64,000 nt of DNA from a virus (IMGVR_UViG_3300020577_003313), one strand, 5' to 3'. Positions 25,277 to 58,455 are shown, counted from the stretch's first letter. Numbers and translations: made by a program. The notes: generated from the sequence alone by a model not told the origin.

Positions 25277-26506
25277 TTAATTAGTAGTAAGTTGCTTGAG
25301 TCTTGCATATTCGTCTGCCTTATTTTTTACTTCAATGAATCTTTCTAGATAATCTTGTTTGATCAGATCCTTCTTATCAGGATCTCGTTCAAAATTTAGC
25401 TGTCTAATAATGTAGCTAGGATGATACATCATATAAACAGAGTAATCGCCAGTTACCGGTAACCATCCTAATGCGTTACCGATAGGTCCTTTTAGGAATC
25501 TACCAAAGAATGCTTTATAGGCTACAGCTCCTAAGAGAACAATAACCTTAGGCTTAAGAATAGCTAGCTCAGTCTTTAGCCTAGAGCTACAGAGAGAAAG
25601 ATGATCGTCGCCAGGCTTACCGTTCTTACTGGGATTATCATCTTCTGCTGGAGGCCAGCACCAAACGGAGTTTGTGATGTAGCAGTCAGTATCTTGATTG
25701 AGGCCCGCCCTGTTCATGACTCTGAAAAGAGTCTCTCCAGCGGGCGCAGAAGGATTAAAAGGAATCCCTGTGTCTCTCTCAGTAGTGCCAGGAGCTTCTC
25801 CGATGATGAATACCTTAGGGTTAACCTTGTTACCTCTACCGAAGGTAACATTGCATCCGAGCTTTATTCTAGTATCAGAGAGGCTGCAACGCTTACAGTT
25901 CTTATACTCTTTTTCTAGAGTAGCTATTGACTGCTTAGATTTGTCCTCAGCAACAATAGGCTCTGGAGTTTGAATAGTATATGTATCTTCTAGCTGATTA
26001 GTAATCCTGCATATCCTCTTGGAGACTTTCCCAAGGACTGGCAAATTTTTGATAACTTCCCAGTCTGTGTCTGGTCTTTCAAGGATGGAGGACAATTCTG
26101 GAATTGTCCAATTGACGCCCTTGTATGCTTCAAAAACCTTGATTACATCCTGTAAAGCAATAGGCTTTCCGCTCACTGGCTTTGCATTTGGAACAACAGT
26201 AGTTGCTTCTTCTGAAACAGTTTCCATGTTTACCTTAGTAATTCGGCGCCTAGATTGAAAAATATGATCAACTGGAACTACTACCGGTTGCTGAATGAAT
26301 GGAGAGTCAAATGTATACCATACATTGACCTTAATAATAGCTCCCGGAGCTCTCTTTTTAGGAGAGTAGAGAAGACCTTCAACTATGTATTTAGTTTTTG
26401 GATCTAAAAAGCTAACTGGAATGCCGTAACCAGACCATTTTGCTTTTTCCTGAAAAAGAAAATCATAATAAAGTTCAAGAGGAGCTTCGACTTTTGCTTT
26501 TGCCAT
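25277..26506 (-). CDS. Family-4 uracil-DNA glycosylase with long N-terminal extension
   Basis: CKRC, GEAPG, GIPF, TNSVWCWP, YHPSY. Confidence 0.85.
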   Translation of the reverse strand: MAKAKVEAPLELYYDFLFQEKAKWSGYGIPVSFLDPKTKYIVEGLLYSPKKRAPGAIIKVNVWYTFDSPFIQQPVVVPVDHIFQSRRRITKVNMETVSEEATTVVPNAKPVSGKPIALQDVIKVFEAYKGVNWTIPELSSILERPDTDWEVIKNLPVLGKVSKRICRITNQLEDTYTIQTPEPIVAEDKSKQSIATLEKEYKNCKRCSLSDTRIKLGCNVTFGRGNKVNPKVFIIGEAPGTTERDTGIPFNPSAPAGETLFRVMNRAGLNQDTDCYITNSVWCWPPAEDDNPSKNGKPGDDHLSLCSSRLKTELAILKPKVIVLLGAVAYKAFFGRFLKGPIGNALGWLPVTGDYSVYMMYHPSYIIRQLNFERDPDKKDLIKQDYLERFIEVKNKADEYARLKQLTTN

Positions 26507-41700: not shown

Positions 41701-41806
41701 TGGTAGGCCGGGTGGGACTCGAACCCACGATCATCCGCAAATCAGGCGGCTCCATTTCTGGGCCGGATTATAAATCCGGTGCATTAACCAACTATGCTAC
41801 CGGCCT
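41701..41806 (-). tRNA. tRNA-Ile(UAU), 106 nt with 34-nt variable region
   Basis: Perfect acceptor AGGCCGG/CCGGCCT, stem CCGGA-TT TAT AA-TCCGG, TTCGAGT, ACCA. Confidence 0.8.
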
Positions 41807-44728: not shown

Positions 44729-44808
44729 TGGTCCCTAGGGTGGGAATTGAACCCACATGTATCCAATTAACCTTTCTATCGCGTATCAGGCGAAGGGTAT
44801 ACCTAGGG
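44729..44808 (-). tRNA. Atypical D-armless tRNA-Ile(GAU)-like RNA
   Basis: Acceptor CCCTAGG/CCTAGGG+ACCA, TCGC-CT GAT AC-GCGA, T arm GTGGG-TTCAATT-CCCAC; only 8 nt where the D arm belongs. Confidence 0.65.
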
Positions 44809-44815
44809 TAAAACT

Positions 44816-45286
44816 ATGAATCAATGTCAAAATAAAGACTGCAACAAAGAGACTAAAAATCCAAGATTTTGCTCAAAATCCTGTTCTGCAATAGTAACAG
44901 GATCAGAAAGTCATAAACGAAAAAGAACTAAAACTTGTAAAGTATGTAGTGCTTTAATTACGTCAGAAAAAACTTTCTGTAGTAATCTCTGTTACTCTAA
45001 AGGTAGAGCAAAACGAAGAACTACTAAGCCAATTGGTTATGAGAGAGTAAAAAATTTCAGAGCTAGATTGAAGCAACAAAGTATTGACTACAAAGGCGGA
45101 AAATGTAGTATTTGTGCTTACTCTAAATGTACAAAAGCTCTTGAGTTTCACCATTTAGATCCTACTCAAAAGGATTTTGTAATCAGTAGTGTTTCTAAAT
45201 CATTTGAAGCAATAAAATATGAACTAGATAAGTGTATTTTAGTTTGTGCAAATTGTCATAGAGAAATACATGACAAAATGCTCTAA
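44816..45286 (+). CDS. HNH endonuclease (tRNA-Ile cassette)
   Basis: YKGGKC..C, LEFHHLDP, KCILVCANCHREIH; N-terminal FCSKSC zinc fingers. Confidence 0.88.
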   Translation: MNQCQNKDCNKETKNPRFCSKSCSAIVTGSESHKRKRTKTCKVCSALITSEKTFCSNLCYSKGRAKRRTTKPIGYERVKNFRARLKQQSIDYKGGKCSICAYSKCTKALEFHHLDPTQKDFVISSVSKSFEAIKYELDKCILVCANCHREIHDKML

Positions 45287-45305
45287 CCAACTGAGCTACC
45301 CAGGG
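45279..45305 (-). pseudogene. Orphan tRNA 5' fragment (acceptor 5' strand + D arm)
   Basis: CCCTGGG-TA-GCTC-AGTTGGTTA-GAGC-A; pairs 7/7 (one G-U) with the 3' acceptor strand at 44733-44739. Confidence 0.8.
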
Positions 45306-47976: not shown

Positions 47977-48411
47977 TGGCGGGAGTGATGGGACTCGAAC
48001 CCATCTACTTAGCGTGCTCTATTCTGTGACAGTTAGCACACAAAACTATACATTTAGCTATCTCATTTTTGAGACGCTCATCTGACCATGTTTTAGATAC
48101 AGCTTTAGATACATCTAGGTCTTTTTGACTAGGGTCAAGATGATGAAATTCCAATGCTATTGGATTTGAGAATCCACATTTAAAGCACGGATGTTGTAAT
48201 TTGTACTCATTGATTAGAGTCTTTAGTTCTAATCTTCTTTGTCTTGTCCAATTAGTGGATCTTTTATGATGAGTACTCTTATGGTTTTGATACCATTTAT
48301 TCCAAGTGGCTTTTCTTACTTCTGGATCTTTACTGGGCATACAACCATATACGATTGTACTACACAAAAAGATCGACAATCTATTGCACTAACCAATTGT
48401 GCTACACCCCC
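47977..48411 (-). pseudogene. tRNA-Asp(GUC) split by an HNH gene (5' part 48411-48370, 3' part 48004-47977)
   Basis: GGGGGTG pairs with CACTCCC; D arm and TT-GTC-GA loop on one side, T arm + GCCA on the other. Confidence 0.85.
48005..48340 (-). CDS. HNH endonuclease inside tRNA-Asp
   Basis: PCFKCG, LEFHHLDP, KCIVLCANCHRIEH; ATG at 48340 preferred because the track start lies inside the tRNA. Confidence 0.88.
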   Translation of the reverse strand: MPSKDPEVRKATWNKWYQNHKSTHHKRSTNWTRQRRLELKTLINEYKLQHPCFKCGFSNPIALEFHHLDPSQKDLDVSKAVSKTWSDERLKNEIAKCIVLCANCHRIEHAK

Positions 48412-53253: not shown

Positions 53254-53314
53254 TGGGCGGGTGTGCTAGATTTAAACTAGCATAGCTAAGCTGTTTTGAT
53301 TAAACTAACACCCG
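53254..53314 (-). ncRNA. 61-nt anticodon-less mini-tRNA
   Basis: CGGGTGT/ACACCCG+CCCA, D-like and T-like arms, anticodon arm reduced to AGCTTAGCT. Confidence 0.6.
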
Positions 53315-53456: not shown

Positions 53457-55115
53457 TTACTCAGAATCGTTGTCTTGTGAATTGGAAGCCTGGATAGATG
53501 TCTTGATGAGATCCACCCAGCTAACTCCCTTTGGCCTAGACACGAACGCCGACATGACATTGAAGATTACATTGCTGAAACCTCCAATATTCATCACATC
53601 ATCCGATGTCGAAGCCTGTGACATTGTGTTTGGGCTCAAGTCAATGAGGACAAGCTTCTTGTCCCCAGACTTGTTATAAGCTCTCCACAATTCTTGTGTC
53701 TTCGTTTGAGCAGCTCTAAGACCTGCGGATACAGTTGCACTGTACCGACTGTAGTAGTCAGCCCAAGATTCGTTATCACTGATAACAATGACGATGTCAT
53801 AGTTATCGTTCTTGATGTGCTCTAGACAGCACGAAACGCTCGTGCCACCTGATTGAGACTTGCTTTCAACGAACGCAGTGATTTCACCAAGTCTCTTGGT
53901 GCTATCAATCGCGCTGTTCCTACTAGCACTATCGAACTTGATGTTAGTATCAAAAATATGAAGATCAGCGTTACCACTGTTCTTCTTATAGATACCAGCA
54001 CCAATCAAGCAAGCTGCCTGTAGGCAGCTCATAGAGCTAGTAGCACCTTCTCTATTTCCAGTTACAGAAGTGCCCATAGAGCCACTACCGTCGATGAAGA
54101 TTGCAATCTTACCCTTCATCTCTGGAATGTTCTTGACCGTAAGGTCAAGCGCATCCTCAAGAGCGTTCTGAATTGCCTTCTCCTGGACAGTGTTGTGCTT
54201 GATCGCAGTGTAGATTTGGTATGGGAACACGCGCGAACGTGCTACCATAGTCTCATCTTTGAGACGATCTGCAATTACCTTGACCATCTTCTTGTCCTTA
54301 AGGACATTATGACGATCAAATGTATTGAGATTCATTCTCGTGAAATGCCAATTACCATTGGCAGCAAGCTGCAACCAATGATTATCGGTCAGTTCTTGAC
54401 CAGTGATTAGCTGGAAATCAACAACTGGGATCGTGCGCGTCTTGTCCTTCTTCCACTCTTCAAATTCCTTGAAGATGCTAGGAAGATCGTCGTAGCGGTA
54501 AGTCTTCTTTGAATCAGTATTCCCCGCCGGGTATCCCATGATCCACTTGAACGCAGCCTGACGGGCTGCATCCTTGGGCTTTGGATGAGCAAGTCTGATG
54601 ATATCCTTCAACGAAGGATCATTACCAACAGTTGCGTTAAGCAACTGCTGATCCGTCATCCTATTGAGATGAGCAGCAACAGAGTTGGAAATGGTAGAGC
54701 CGAGGCTCTTTCTACCAACCTTACCAGATCGAACCATCTGGATAAGATTACGAATCATCTTCGCATTATTGATAACGCGAGGATAAAATTGACGGAACAG
54801 AGACGGATCTCTCACAGAGAGAATTGCCATAAGCAAAGCTGGCATATCCTTCATGAAGCCAAAGCTTCTCGAATAGACAGCCATATTTGCCAAGGTTACA
54901 TCAGTGCATCCCAAGGACAGCTCAATTACCTTATCCAGCTGCTCTTCAGCAGTCGAATAGAAAGTATTGTTAAAGCAGCCAGTTACAGCTAGCTGAGCCA
55001 GAGCCTCTTCCTTGCCCTTATCATAGCTAAGGCCGCCGCTCTTGTTGACGACAACTACAGCGCGCGTCGCCTTCTTAGCCTTCTTCTTGCTACCAAATAA
55101 ATTCTTGTTAGACAT
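53457..55115 (-). CDS. rsr: Ro60/Rsr TROVE + vWA RNA-binding protein
   Basis: LAQLAVTGCFNNTFY, MKDMPALL, RSGKVGRKSLG, DIIRLAHPKP, RMNLNTF, VFPYQ, DGSGSM, ISDNESW; start at MSNKNLF. Confidence 0.92.
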   Translation of the reverse strand: MSNKNLFGSKKKAKKATRAVVVVNKSGGLSYDKGKEEALAQLAVTGCFNNTFYSTAEEQLDKVIELSLGCTDVTLANMAVYSRSFGFMKDMPALLMAILSVRDPSLFRQFYPRVINNAKMIRNLIQMVRSGKVGRKSLGSTISNSVAAHLNRMTDQQLLNATVGNDPSLKDIIRLAHPKPKDAARQAAFKWIMGYPAGNTDSKKTYRYDDLPSIFKEFEEWKKDKTRTIPVVDFQLITGQELTDNHWLQLAANGNWHFTRMNLNTFDRHNVLKDKKMVKVIADRLKDETMVARSRVFPYQIYTAIKHNTVQEKAIQNALEDALDLTVKNIPEMKGKIAIFIDGSGSMGTSVTGNREGATSSMSCLQAACLIGAGIYKKNSGNADLHIFDTNIKFDSASRNSAIDSTKRLGEITAFVESKSQSGGTSVSCCLEHIKNDNYDIVIVISDNESWADYYSRYSATVSAGLRAAQTKTQELWRAYNKSGDKKLVLIDLSPNTMSQASTSDDVMNIGGFSNVIFNVMSAFVSRPKGVSWVDLIKTSIQASNSQDNDSE

Positions 55116-55165
55116 CTCAATGTCCTTGAGTAAATTGTTAGGAACTATACGAACCAGCCCGTCAA

Positions 55166-55507
55166 TCAGACGGGCGGAGTATCTTTGTAGATCGTCTTGT
55201 TGGCACGCTCGATCCACTCTTGAGCCTCACGCAAGGCCGCGATGAGCACCAGCACATTGTTTTCGTTGGCCGATGCCGACCGACCCCAGGTGCCATCCTT
55301 CTTCATGAAGGCTCGCTCGAAGGTGACGGAGAAGAAATTCTTCCCGTCCTTCGTGGGATTGGTCCAGATCGCCACACGGAATGGTGACATACGAACCACG
55401 TGCGTGGGCTTCGTGCTCCGTTCCATAGGAACGGGGATCTGATTGACCTGAACTTGGGTTTGGGTCTTGGGAGCAGAACGACGAGACTTATTGAGAGAAA
55501 CAGTCAT
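55166..55507 (-). CDS. Small PC4-like putative ssDNA-binding protein
   Basis: VAIWTN..KDG...SVTFERAF..KDG.W. Confidence 0.45.
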   Translation of the reverse strand: MTVSLNKSRRSAPKTQTQVQVNQIPVPMERSTKPTHVVRMSPFRVAIWTNPTKDGKNFFSVTFERAFMKKDGTWGRSASANENNVLVLIAALREAQEWIERANKTIYKDTPPV

Positions 55508-56901: not shown

Positions 56902-56945
56902 TGGTACCCTTACCAAGACTTGAACTTGGAACCTACGGTTTAGAA
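56902..56945 (-). pseudogene. 3' half of a resident tRNA-Arg(UCU)
   Basis: T-TCT-AA-ACCGT-AGGTT-CCAAG-TTCAAGT-CTTGG-TAAGGGT-ACCA. Confidence 0.85.
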
Positions 56946-56977
56946 TCTTGAATTCTAATTTGTAACACGTAAATTAG

Positions 56978-57065
56978 TGGTACAGCTGGTAGGATTCGAA
57001 CCTACAATTTGGTTGCCCAACCAGATTAGAAATCTGGGCCGTTATCCATTTCCGGTCACAGCTGC
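56978..57065 (-). tRNA. tRNA-Arg(UCU) with long variable arm (88 nt)
   Basis: CCAGA-TT TCT AA-TCTGG, variable arm TTGG-GCAA-CCAA, A after the D-loop GG, ACCA. Confidence 0.85.
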
Positions 57066-57073
57066 ATGAAATT

Positions 57074-57421
57074 ATGAATACGTGTACAAAATGTAAATGT
57101 TCAGGACCCTTCTACAAGAAGGGTAACAGGAATACTTCTTATTGCAAAAATTGTTTCAATTCTTATTGTATGGAAAGATGGAAAGAAAAGAAACAAAAAG
57201 CAATAGTATACAAAGGTGATTGCTGTTTTGATTGTAAACAGCAATATCATTACTCAATATATGAATTTCATCACTTAGATCCAAAAAGTAAAGACTACAA
57301 TTGGTCTAAATTGAGAATGAAGTCTTGGGCTTCCATAGTCAAAGAACTAGACAAGTGCGTAATGTTGTGCGCTAATTGTCATAGATCTAGACACTGGGAC
57401 AAAGATAACTCATCCAGTTGA
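57074..57421 (+). CDS. HNH endonuclease (tRNA-Arg cassette)
   Basis: YKGDCCFDC, YEFHHLDP, ELDKCVMLCANCHRSRH. Confidence 0.88.
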   Translation: MNTCTKCKCSGPFYKKGNRNTSYCKNCFNSYCMERWKEKKQKAIVYKGDCCFDCKQQYHYSIYEFHHLDPKSKDYNWSKLRMKSWASIVKELDKCVMLCANCHRSRHWDKDNSSS

Positions 57422-57432
57422 GCTATAAGGGC
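57409..57432 (-). pseudogene. 5' fragment of the resident tRNA-Arg(UCU)
   Basis: GCCCTTA-TA-GCTC-AACTGGAT-GAG; GCCCTTA pairs 7/7 (one G-U) with TAAGGGT of the 56902 half. Confidence 0.85.
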
Positions 57433-57748: not shown

Positions 57749-57795
57749 TGGTAGACCGGGTGGGAGTTGAACCCACACGAATAATCCGCTTAAAA
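57749..57795 (-). pseudogene. 3' half of a resident tRNA-Lys(UUU)
   Basis: T-TTT-AA-GCGGA...GTGGG-TTCAACT-CCCAC-CCGGTCT-ACCA. Confidence 0.8.
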
Positions 57796-57828
57796 ATTGT
57801 AAATTTTAAGATGATCAGGTCGCAAAAA

Positions 57829-57917
57829 TGGTGGGACCGGTGAGATTCGAACTCACGGTGGACTTTCGTCGCCCGCTTAAAAGGCGGATACCATCGACCA
57901 ACTCGGTACACGGTCCC
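57829..57917 (-). tRNA. tRNA-Lys(UUU) with long variable arm (89 nt)
   Basis: GGGACCG/CGGTCCC, CT-TTT-AA, variable arm GAC-GAAA-GTC, ACCA. Confidence 0.85.
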
Positions 57918-57924
57918 ATACAAT

Positions 57925-58455
57925 ATGGACATCCAAGATCAACTTAAGAAATTATACATTGATAACAGATTATCAATACTAGATTGTTCAGAAAAATTAG
58001 GTATTTCTGCAACAAAAGTTAAATACTATCTTAGTAGATTTCAAATCAAACGAAATCAATATACTAAAATAGACGGTACGTCTGAAGATAGAATTTGTAC
58101 AAAATGTAAGACGTTAAAAAACGTTTCAGAGTTCTATTTCCAGTCTTACAAAACTTCGGATAGAAAATCTAGACAAGGTTCTTGGTGTAAATCTTGCATG
58201 TCTAAACAAGTTATTGAAAGACAACGCAAGTATAAACAGCAAGCAGTTGACTACAAAGGCGGAAAATGCCAGAATTGTGGCTATAGCAAATATCTAGGAG
58301 CACTAGAATTTCATCACTTAGATCCTACTCAAAAGGATTTCGAGATGTCTAAATTTACTAAATCTCCCTTAGGAGATTTTGCTAAGGAAGAACTAAATAA
58401 GTGCATATTGCTTTGTGCTAATTGCCATAGAGAAGCACACGAAACAAAAGTGTAA
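57925..58455 (+). CDS. HNH endonuclease (tRNA-Lys cassette)
   Basis: N-terminal HTH-like + CxxC; YKGGKCQNCG, LEFHHLDP, KCILLCANCHREAH. Confidence 0.88.
   Translation: MDIQDQLKKLYIDNRLSILDCSEKLGISATKVKYYLSRFQIKRNQYTKIDGTSEDRICTKCKTLKNVSEFYFQSYKTSDRKSRQGSWCKSCMSKQVIERQRKYKQQAVDYKGGKCQNCGYSKYLGALEFHHLDPTQKDFEMSKFTKSPLGDFAKEELNKCILLCANCHREAHETKV

What the first reader, a model, noticed from the sequence alone, without database searches (positions are those of the whole stretch)
44729..45305. Rearranged, D-armless tRNA-Ile(GAU)-like RNA with the original D arm stranded beyond the HNH gene
Seen: the 80-nt RNA has a perfect acceptor stem, T arm, ACCA and a CU-GAU-AC loop. It has only 8 nt (TATACCCT) where the D arm belongs, and 22 nt after the anticodon arm containing a D-loop-like AATTGGAT. 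A canonical 5' end plus D arm that also pairs with the same 3' acceptor strand lies 470 nt upstream. Inference: the D-loop function may have been moved 3' of the anticodon arm, giving an alternative topology for the L shape. The anticodon of the displaced resident gene cannot be read.
Basis: partly seen in the sequence, partly recalled or inferred. Interest (0 to 1): 0.75.

Follow-up and report, generated by a model that had tools for sequence, protein, structure and literature searches.

The report
Nuclease cassette with re-threaded isoleucine tRNA
This phage carries a selfish DNA-cutting-enzyme gene joined to an isoleucine tRNA whose inner parts are strung in a different order from the textbook cloverleaf. 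The pair has overwritten an ordinary tRNA gene and left its first 27 bases behind.

Summary
The 80-nt RNA (minus strand, 44808..44729) is not a local accident. It belongs to a conserved, almost purely viral family: 95 distinct genes from capped IMG/VR scans, plus 77 Streptomyces phage records. Only 3 hits came from 185,579 cellular species, all on MAG contigs. Anticodons are Ile (GAU, UAU) and Arg (ACG, UCU).

Covariation supports all four helices, including a re-threaded D stem that pairs around the anticodon arm. The tertiary pairs R15:Y48 and G19:C56 also covary, so the D loop works from its new position. ARAGORN of 95 genes as found. It of 95 once two inner segments are swapped back in silico.

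The "stranded D arm" is not this RNA's own. It is the stub of a resident canonical tRNA gene overwritten by an HNH-plus-tRNA cassette. The same layout recurs in at least 11 other viral contigs. This window holds two more head-to-head HNH-plus-atypical-tRNA cassettes; one (Arg-UCU) also splits a resident gene. Where the stub keeps its anticodon, it matches the incoming tRNA. The stub here was therefore probably tRNA-Ile(GAU).

This scan has found the family before on other DNA. I found no paper describing it. Charging, decoding and nuclease activity are untested.

The parts
44729..44808 (-). Re-threaded (segment-swapped) tRNA-Ile(GAU), 77 nt plus encoded CCA. Anticodon GAU lies at 44787..44785, discriminator A73 at 44732, CCA at 44731..44729.
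   Evidence: Read. RF00005 31.5 bits. Family model R1 94.5 bits. Not called by ARAGORN.
44802..44808 (-). Acceptor 5' strand CCCUAGG. It pairs with 44739..44733 (CCUAGGG).
   Evidence: 7 of 7 Watson-Crick pairs here. All 7 pairs covary across 95 genes.
44796..44799 (-). D-stem strand 'a' (UACC), the counterpart of canonical positions 22-25. It directly follows U8 A9 and leads through C26 into the anticodon stem.
   Evidence: A-C-C pairs with G-G-U at 44772..44770. The pairs never vary in the core family but show compensatory changes once diverged members are added. They are present in the minimum-energy fold.
44779..44793 (-). Anticodon arm: 4-bp stem UCGC/GCGA, flanked by a conserved U-U pair, with loop CUGAUAC.
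   Evidence: All 4 pairs covary and 99.7% of cells are paired. U33 and A37 are present.
44773..44778 (-). Linker UAGAAA between the anticodon stem and D-stem strand 'b' (counterpart of positions 43-45 plus extra bases). GAAA is invariant in the gathered family, but it was fixed by the main scan pattern.
   Evidence: Alignment A1.
44757..44772 (-). D-stem strand 'b' (GGUU, counterpart of 10-13), then the relocated D loop (A14 A15 U U G18 G19 A U A C A21) and U48.
   Evidence: A14 is invariant. R15:Y48 and G19:C56 covary.
44740..44756 (-). T arm GUGGG-UUCAAUU-CCCAC.
   Evidence: 4 of 5 pairs covary.
44809..44815 (.). 7-nt spacer between the tRNA 5' end and the HNH start codon (head-to-head arrangement).
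   Evidence: The window's other two cassettes have spacers of 8 and 7 nt.
44816..45286 (+). HNH endonuclease gene (156 aa, intact, motif EFHHLD...CANCHREIH), antisense to the tRNA array. Its stop codon lies inside the stub's D loop.
   Evidence: PHROG 2255 at E 1.3e-24. 43-47% identity to the FelixO1 ORF44 group. GC 0.32-0.35 against about 0.40 nearby.
45279..45305 (-). Stub of a canonical tRNA gene, positions 1-26: acceptor CCCUGGG, U8 A9, D arm GCUC-AGUUGGUUA-GAGC, A26. No anticodon arm follows.
   Evidence: It is identical to the tRNA's first 9 nt at 8 of 9 positions.

Best explanation
The stretch is a mobile cassette. It holds an HNH homing-type endonuclease gene lying head to head with a complete tRNA-Ile(GAU) of non-cloverleaf design, and it has landed in and overwritten a resident canonical tRNA gene, probably tRNA-Ile(GAU). 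Positions 1-26 of that gene survive as a stub.

The tRNA keeps every module of a normal tRNA, but two inner segments are transposed. The normal order is 1-9, [10-21], [22-45], 46-76. Here the order is 1-9, [22-45], [10-21], 48-76. As a result the D stem forms around the anticodon arm and the D loop follows it. The D loop still makes the U8-A14, R15-Y48 and G18/G19-T-loop contacts that build the elbow.

Shown here: family membership, the secondary structure, the tertiary covariation, the recurrent cassette-and-stub architecture, and the same-anticodon pattern.

Inferred: the RNA is cut out by RNase P, charged by host IleRS and reads AUU/AUC. The endonuclease cuts canonical tRNA genes. The re-threaded gene replaces the lost function and lacks the cut site.
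For: Family:
- Blastn found the same RNA in 77 Streptomyces phage records and one huge uncultured phage.
- Pattern scans of IMG/VR gave more than 120 loci and 95 distinct genes.
- 185,579 cellular species gave 3 hits, all on MAG contigs.
- The genes sit on the tRNA strand inside phage tRNA arrays.

Structure:
- 99.3% of cells are paired, 593 cells changed on both sides, and 0 of 500 shuffles reach the observed values.
- With diverged members, the re-threaded D stem covaries: AU 77, CG 12, UA 2, GC 1; CG 84, GC 3, AU 2, UA 2; CG 84, GC 3.
- R15:Y48 gives Fisher p 8e-11 and G19:C56 gives p 5e-6.
- The minimum-energy fold contains the ACC/GGU pairs.
- ARAGORN of 95 native genes, 94 of 95 un-swapped and 43 of 95 with a wrong boundary.

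Decoder features:
- U33 and A37 are present.
- A73 is found in all 54 genes whose middle anticodon base is A (52 Ile plus 2 CAU).
- The base after G19 is A in 39 of 41 Arg genes and U in 39 of 52 Ile genes (2 have A, including this one).
- AUU plus AUC make up 59 codons per 1000 here.

Cassette:
- Canonical stubs lie just upstream of re-threaded genes in L064, L067, L006, L134, L121, L014, L047, L054, L094, L084 and L127.
- The anticodon is the same (ACG) in all five stubs that keep the anticodon loop.
- L064 has a split tRNA(CAU) containing a re-threaded Ile(UAU) plus an HNH gene.
- L047 is a visible chimera: a 5' strand shared with L048, L049 and L094, and a 3' strand that matches its own stub 7 of 7.
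- This window holds three related HNH genes, each 7-8 nt from an atypical tRNA. Cassette B splits a canonical Arg(UCU) gene and carries an Arg(UCU) tRNA.
- The FelixO1 homologue (43% identity) sits at the 5' edge of tRNA-Ile(GAU) and is present in only 11 of 258 related records.
Against: - No transcript, charging or cleavage data exist for any member.
- No HNH-free relative of this phage was found, so the insertion event itself is reconstructed, not observed.
- The stub has no anticodon, and its D arm also fits Asn, Asp and Met types.
- No 3' piece of the resident gene is left here. The near-identity of the stub's and the tRNA's acceptor strands (6 of 7) has no settled explanation.
- Streptomyces phage Jay2Jay carries both a re-threaded and a canonical Ile(GAU) gene, so the RNA is not always the only decoder.
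- About 90% of family members have no HNH gene within 150 nt.
- The HNH proximity test used seeds taken from such cassettes, which biases it.
- Alignment A2 was fitted to the model's structure, so its pair counts lean towards that structure.
- This gene has A after G19, the Arg-type base.
Confidence: 0.75

Rival explanations
1. The family is a real structured RNA but is not used for decoding. It would act as a tRNA-shaped decoy or inhibitor, for example soaking up host tRNA-cutting defence nucleases or tRNA-modifying enzymes.
For: Jay2Jay keeps a canonical Ile(GAU) beside the re-threaded one. The family is limited to a few anticodons. Phage tRNA loci are known to counter tRNA-cleaving defences such as Septu (PMC13096335).
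Against: Synthetase identity marks follow the anticodon: A73 in all Ile genes and A20 in Arg genes. The acceptor stem is perfect and CCA is encoded. Where a canonical gene was destroyed, the incoming gene has the same anticodon. That fits replacement of function rather than decoy action.
Confidence: 0.12
2. The 80-nt RNA is a non-functional by-product of the HNH insertion: a scrambled pseudogene made locally from the resident tRNA. This is the literal sense of the reader's 'rearranged'.
For: The stub's acceptor strand is nearly identical to that of the RNA. ARAGORN rejects the RNA.
Against: 95 distinct genes in unrelated phages keep the same design, with compensatory changes in every helix and in two tertiary pairs. 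Most members stand alone in tRNA arrays with no stub and no HNH gene.
Confidence: 0.03
3. The stub, the HNH region and the downstream RNA form one interrupted tRNA gene. An intron-like insert would be removed so that the canonical 5' half is used.
For: The stub can pair with the 3' acceptor strand (7 of 7 with one G-U). The minimum-energy fold of the whole 577 nt closes that helix.
Against: No group I or group II intron model matches, even at E up to 10. The ORF is antisense and fills the insert, leaving no room for a ribozyme core. Removing the insert would leave two acceptor 5' strands. In the other stub cases the stub does not pair with the downstream 3' strand.
Confidence: 0.02

Closest known systems
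Canonical bacterial and phage tRNA-Ile(GAU) (class I cloverleaf, Rfam RF00005)
   Same: 7-bp acceptor stem, A73, CCA, T arm, 7-nt anticodon loop with U33, GAU and A37. Also U8, A14, R15:Y48 and G18 G19 against the T loop. It passes the Rfam threshold at 31.5 bits.
   Different: There is no D hairpin. The segment holding the D-stem 5' strand and D loop lies after the anticodon arm instead of before it. The D stem therefore encloses the anticodon arm and the junction is three-way. The anticodon stem has 4 pairs plus a U-U. ARAGORN misses all 95 genes.
Free-standing homing endonucleases in phage tRNA clusters: T4 SegB (GIY-YIG; PMC2330249)
   Same: A nuclease gene sits inside a tRNA array. SegB recognises a site built on the conserved T-stem-loop motif of tRNA genes and drives inheritance of itself together with neighbouring tRNA genes. 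The HNH relative in Felixounaviruses shows the patchy presence typical of homing genes, 11 of 258 records.
   Different: The nuclease family here is HNH. The gene lies inside a destroyed tRNA gene and is coupled at 7 nt to a structurally non-canonical replacement tRNA. No such coupling is described in the SegB abstract.
D-armless mitochondrial tRNAs (for example nematode mt-tRNA-Ser; review PMC7609411)
   Same: No D hairpin follows the acceptor stem.
   Different: The mitochondrial forms lose the D arm and its contacts and become flexible. Here the D stem and D loop are kept and only re-ordered, with the elbow contacts conserved.
Circularly permuted tRNA genes of Cyanidioschyzon merolae (recalled from my own knowledge, not checked here)
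   Same: The gene order of tRNA parts differs from the cloverleaf order.
   Different: In those genes processing restores a normal mature tRNA. Here nothing suggests re-joining, and the mature RNA itself would be re-threaded.

Membership tests
tRNA (Rfam RF00005; working decoder) | 7-bp acceptor stem, discriminator base and a 3' CCA (encoded or added) | tested here: met
   CCCUAGG/CCUAGGG, A73 and CCA. All 7 pairs covary.
tRNA (Rfam RF00005; working decoder) | T arm with a UUCRANY loop, and an anticodon loop of 7 nt with U33 and a purine at 37 | tested here: met
   GUGGG-UUCAAUU-CCCAC and CUGAUAC. Both stems covary.
tRNA (Rfam RF00005; working decoder) | D hairpin between position 9 and the anticodon stem (cloverleaf connectivity) | tested here: not met
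   Only 8 nt lie there. Rfam aligns it with the D arm deleted. ARAGORN of 95.
tRNA (Rfam RF00005; working decoder) | Core tertiary contacts: U8-A14, R15:Y48, G19:C56 | tested here: met
   U8 and A14 are invariant. R15:Y48 is A:U 72 and G:C 14. G19:C56 is G:C 89 and A:U 4. The contacts are made from the relocated loop.
tRNA (Rfam RF00005; working decoder) | Aminoacylation and decoding on the ribosome | not testable with these tools
   Only indirect evidence: identity marks follow the anticodon.
Segment-swapped phage tRNA family (Ile/Arg; unpublished as far as I could find) | UAUACCCU after the acceptor stem, GAAAGGUUA after the anticodon arm, then R-N-N-G-G ... C-A-Y before the T stem | tested here: met
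   94.5 bits with model R1, among the top five scores. The interior is identical to L004 over 56 nt.
Free-standing homing endonuclease cassette | Intact nuclease ORF of a homing family | tested here: met
   PHROG 2255 at E 1.3e-24. The HNH motif is visible.
Free-standing homing endonuclease cassette | Patchy presence among close relatives at one site | tested here: inconclusive
   Met for the FelixO1 homologue (11 of 258 records). No relatives of this phage were found.
Free-standing homing endonuclease cassette | Site-specific cleavage of the empty allele | not testable with these tools
Group I intron in a tRNA gene | Ribozyme core, usually inserted in the anticodon loop | tested here: not met
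   No intron family matched at E up to 10. The insert is filled by an antisense ORF.

The most novel reading that the evidence does not exclude
Non-cloverleaf tRNAs exist in phages because of selfish nucleases. Homing endonucleases that recognise conserved tRNA-gene sequence would travel with a tRNA whose segments are re-ordered. The gene then no longer carries the cut site, yet the RNA still folds into the L shape and replaces the gene that the nuclease destroys. The re-threaded architecture would be an immunity allele, and it would be the first natural tRNA topology other than the cloverleaf used in bacterial translation.
Probability: 0.35. Interest if true: 0.92.

Novelty: new variant of a known kind. 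Interest (0 to 1): 0.8.

Why it matters
[quoted passage not shown] The 2020 review of non-canonical tRNAs does not mention phages at all. If this family is charged and decodes, then the L shape, not the cloverleaf chain order, is what translation requires.

Gene finders also miss a class of phage tRNAs. The gene is unannotated in the curated Jay2Jay record, and in FelixO1 no tRNA is annotated there (an HNH CDS overlaps its 3' part).

The coupling to homing endonucleases gives a concrete, testable reason why such a design might arise and spread. It also offers ready-made orthogonal tRNA scaffolds for genetic-code engineering.

Tried and rejected
- **HNH-free relatives of this phage.** A viral-contig scan with the upstream flank protein found none. 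The 5.8-billion-protein search found only the protein itself. Its contigs show the same layout. Exact-pattern scans for the gene with its own acceptor found nothing in viral or metagenome contigs.
- **The intact form of the stub.** A 26-nt pattern scan gave two unrelated GC-rich odd tRNAs.
- **Isotype of the stub from its D arm.** Ile(GAU) is the best match at 6 of 43, but Asn, Asp, Val and others also match. This is not decisive.
- **Group I intron or other known RNA.** No Rfam match beyond tRNA.
- **A Y RNA reading of the stub.** The YrlA hit is 19 bits against a threshold of 69, so I rejected it.
- **L004 ORF of 156 aa.** It is not an HNH relative.
- **Promoter and terminator scan.** Nothing above the shuffle level.
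- **Literature.** Four searches, including sequence strings, found no description of the family.
- **Whole-genome tRNA list.** No genome is held for this window. I could not check whether a canonical Ile(GAU) exists elsewhere in the roughly 177-kb phage.

Full report
**1. What is there**

All large genes and 10 ARAGORN tRNAs of this 64-kb phage window lie on the minus strand. On that strand, 44808..44729 reads as follows:
- acceptor strand CCCUAGG
- UAUACCCU
- stem UCGC, loop CUGAUAC, stem GCGA
- UAGAAAGGUUAAUUGGAUACAU
- T arm GUGGG-UUCAAUU-CCCAC
- CCUAGGG, A, CCA

ARAGORN does not call it. Rfam's tRNA model reaches 31.5 bits against a threshold of 29, but only by deleting the D arm and inserting 18 nt.

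Seven bases beyond the RNA's 5' end, on the opposite strand, a 156-aa HNH endonuclease ORF starts (44816-45286). It matches PHROG 2255 at E 1.3e-24 and is 43-47% identical to the FelixO1 ORF44 group. The HNH stretch has lower GC than its surroundings, 0.32-0.35 against about 0.40.

The ORF's stop codon lies inside a canonical tRNA 5' piece on the minus strand, at 45305..45279. That piece is CCCUGGG-UA-GCUC-AGUUGGUUA-GAGC-A, and no anticodon arm follows it.

**2. The RNA belongs to a large viral family**

- Blastn matched the RNA's interior in 77 Streptomyces phage records and in a 462-kb uncultured phage. The copies keep the unpaired blocks but have different, self-complementary acceptor and anticodon stems.
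Together they hold 95 distinct genes of 75-80 nt.
- The anticodons are ACG 37, GAU 36, UAU 19, UCU 4, CAU 2 and GCG 1, counted on the 100 distinct sequences before five poor ones were dropped.
- The same pattern scanned over one genome for each of 185,579 bacterial and archaeal species gave 3 hits, all on short MAG contigs.
- The genes sit on the tRNA strand inside phage tRNA arrays, often a few bases from their neighbours.
- A covariance model built from the 95 genes separates three groups. Core members score 77-96 bits (this window 94.5). Diverged members score 34-61 bits; these include a tRNA-Arg(UCU)-like gene of Salmonella phage FelixO1 at NC_005282 25951-26029. Ordinary tRNAs score below 30.
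- The gene is unannotated in the curated Jay2Jay record, in the gap between genes 110 and 111.

**3. Structure**

On the 95 genes, the acceptor, anticodon and T stems are 99.3% paired. 593 cells changed on both sides, and none of 500 shuffles reaches the observed values.

The proposed new D stem pairs A-C-C, just after U8 A9, with G-G-U, just before the D-loop-like block. It never varies in the core set, so it says nothing there. With the diverged members aligned, all three pairs show compensatory changes:
- AU 77, CG 12, UA 2, GC 1
- CG 84, GC 3, AU 2, UA 2
- CG 84, GC 3

That alignment was fitted to the model. However, the same exchanges are plain in the raw sequences: UCCC/GGGU, UCCG/CGGU, UCUC/GAGU, UCGG/CCGU and CCAG/CUGU.

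Mutual information picked out two further column pairs outside the helices:
- The base after the invariant A of GGUUA pairs with the last base before the T stem (A:U 72, G:C 14; Fisher p 8e-11).
- The second G of the GG pairs with the C of the T loop (G:C 89, A:U 4; p 5e-6).

These are the Levitt pair R15:Y48 and the elbow pair G19:C56 of ordinary tRNA. The minimum-energy fold of the 80-mer contains the ACC/GGU helix.

The simplest description is a transposition of two inner segments. The normal order is 1-9, [10-21], [22-45], 46-76. Here it is 1-9, [22-45], [10-21], 48-76. As a check I swapped the two segments back in silico. ARAGORN of 95 native sequences. It of 95 un-swapped ones, each with the expected anticodon. 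With a wrong boundary it of 95.

**4. Signs that it decodes (inference)**

- The loop has U33 and A37.
- A73 occurs in all 54 genes whose middle anticodon base is A (52 Ile plus 2 CAU). Arg genes have G, A or U there.
- The base after G19 (position 20) is A in 39 of 41 Arg genes and U in 39 of 52 Ile genes. From my own recall, A20 is the main D-loop identity mark for E. coli ArgRS. This window's gene and its closest relative L004 are the two Ile genes with A there.
- AUU plus AUC make up 59 codons per 1000 in the window's long ORFs.
- No other Ile(GAU) gene lies in the window. The rest of the roughly 177-kb phage could not be searched.
- Jay2Jay has both a re-threaded and a canonical Ile(GAU), so the two forms can coexist.

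**5. The stranded D arm is the stub of another gene**

A scan of all fetched loci for orphan canonical 5' pieces found them just upstream of re-threaded genes many times:

| Locus | Spacer between stub and re-threaded gene |
|---|---|
| L067 | 2 nt |
| L134 | 9 nt |
| L014 | 13 nt |
| L006 | 15 nt |
| L064 | 27 nt |
| L121 | 28 nt |

- In L064 the rest of the broken gene is still present. The order is: positions 1-26; then a re-threaded Ile(UAU); then an HNH gene; then the CUCAUAA loop, T arm and a matching 3' acceptor strand of a tRNA(CAU).
- In L047, L054, L094, L084 and L127, a canonical tRNA-Arg(ACG) is cut off in or after its anticodon loop, or in the T loop. An HNH gene follows, running into a re-threaded Arg(ACG). 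The anticodon is the same in every case where it can be read.
- L047 is a visible recombinant. Its re-threaded gene has the 5' strand GCGUCUG, as in L048, L049 and L094. Its 3' strand CGGGCGU matches the upstream stub ACGCCCG 7 of 7, and pairs with its own 5' strand only through three G-U pairs.

Related HNH genes start at 57074 and 57925, also on the plus strand. They lie 8 and 7 nt from the 5' ends of atypical tRNA-Arg(UCU) and tRNA-Lys(UUU) genes. The Arg cassette splits a canonical tRNA-Arg(UCU). Its 5' piece starts at 57432. Its 3' piece, with the UCU loop and the matching acceptor strand, ends at 56903.

With HNH seeds taken from these cassettes, 8 of 110 re-threaded genes have an HNH gene within 30 nt, against 14 of 1019 ordinary tRNAs (p 6e-4). 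The choice of seeds biases this test.

The FelixO1 homologue of this HNH gene sits at the 5' edge of tRNA-Ile(GAU). It is present in only 11 of 258 related phage records. The others have the flanking tRNA genes joined. That is the patchy pattern expected of a homing gene.

**6. What remains open here**

- The stub's acceptor strand CCCUGGG and the tRNA's CCCUAGG agree at 6 of 7 positions (8 of 9 counting U8 A9). The chance expectation is about 0.001 per comparison.
- Most Ile(GAU) members start with CGG, while this one starts with CCC like the stub.
- The gene differs from its near-twin L004 at 5 of 14 acceptor positions but at only 2 of 63 positions elsewhere.

These facts point to a crossover in the 3' part of the resident gene followed by re-matching of the stem, as in L047. 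A short duplication at the insertion point is also possible. No 3' piece of the resident gene survives here. I found no HNH-free relative that would settle this.

The stub's D arm fits Ile(GAU) best (6 of 43 such genes in the loci), but it also fits Asn, Asp and others. I put the stub being Ile(GAU) at about 0.6, mainly on the same-anticodon pattern.

**7. Comparison with known things**

- *Homing genes in tRNA clusters.* These are known. T4 SegB recognises a site built on the conserved T-stem-loop motif and carries neighbouring tRNA genes with it (PMC2330249). It can also amplify a tRNA gene to beat a tRNA-cutting defence (PMC13096335).
- *D-armless mitochondrial tRNAs.* These lose the D arm and its contacts (PMC7609411). 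Here the contacts are kept.
- *Group I introns.* No intron model matches.
- *The literature.* Four full-text searches, including the conserved sequence strings, found no description of this architecture.
- *This scan.* It has reported the family and the nuclease-plus-spare-tRNA cassette before on other DNA. I treated those notes as leads and re-derived the evidence here.

**8. Verdict**

My confidence in each part:
- About 0.9 that this is a member of a conserved segment-swapped tRNA family with the structure given.
- About 0.8 that the stub is what remains of a canonical gene overwritten by the cassette.
- About 0.7 that the RNA is a working Ile decoder.
- About 0.35 that the re-threading serves as immunity against the accompanying nuclease.

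Noticed in passing
window 41704-41806 (-): A 103-nt tRNA-Ile(UAU) that scores 65 bits with RF00005 but is missed by ARAGORN. Its 34-nt variable region holds the hairpin CCGC-CUGAUUU-GCGG, which looks like a decayed Ile(GAU) anticodon arm. The gene may be a fusion of two tRNA genes.
   Followed up: partly
window 53257-53314 (-), beside 53457-55217 (-): A 58-nt tRNA-like element (32.6 bits) with acceptor stem, T arm and a D-loop-like stretch but no anticodon arm. It lies about 140 nt downstream of a Ro60-like gene (PHROG 850; 38% identity to Myxococcus phage Mx1). It is probably the tRNA-like module of a phage Y RNA.
   Followed up: no
window 56903-57432 and 57752-58455: Two more head-to-head HNH-plus-tRNA cassettes. 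They carry tRNA-Arg(UCU) of 88 nt and tRNA-Lys(UUU) of 89 nt, both with long hairpin variable arms, which is unusual for these amino acids. The Arg cassette splits a canonical Arg(UCU) gene whose two pieces remain. A decayed Lys-like 3' piece lies at 57752-57822.
   Followed up: partly
window about 48008-48235 (-): A fourth HNH-like stretch (tblastn 49% identity over 77 aa to the 156-aa protein) between tRNA-Asn and tRNA-Gly, on the tRNA strand.
   Followed up: no
L047:7216-8026 (-): A natural recombinant. The re-threaded Arg(ACG) has a 5' strand shared with three other contigs and a 3' strand that matches the truncated canonical Arg(ACG) 734 nt upstream. The HNH gene between them is decayed.
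   Followed up: yes
L064:2757-3570 (+): A canonical tRNA(CAU) split after position 26 by a re-threaded tRNA-Ile(UAU) plus an HNH gene whose stop codon lies in the CUCAUAA loop. If the broken gene was the lysidine-type Ile tRNA, both genes read AUA.
   Followed up: partly
L003:2416-2494 (NC_005282 25951-26029): FelixO1 carries a diverged family member (Arg UCU, 43 bits with R1) with no tRNA annotation. The annotated HNH ORF45 (26003-26395) overlaps its 3' part.
   Followed up: partly
L135:3960-4046 and L136:6732-6830: GC-rich viral contigs with odd long tRNA-like genes that start CCCCUGGGUAGCUCAGUUGGUUAGAGC and have 20-40 extra bases around the anticodon region.
   Followed up: no
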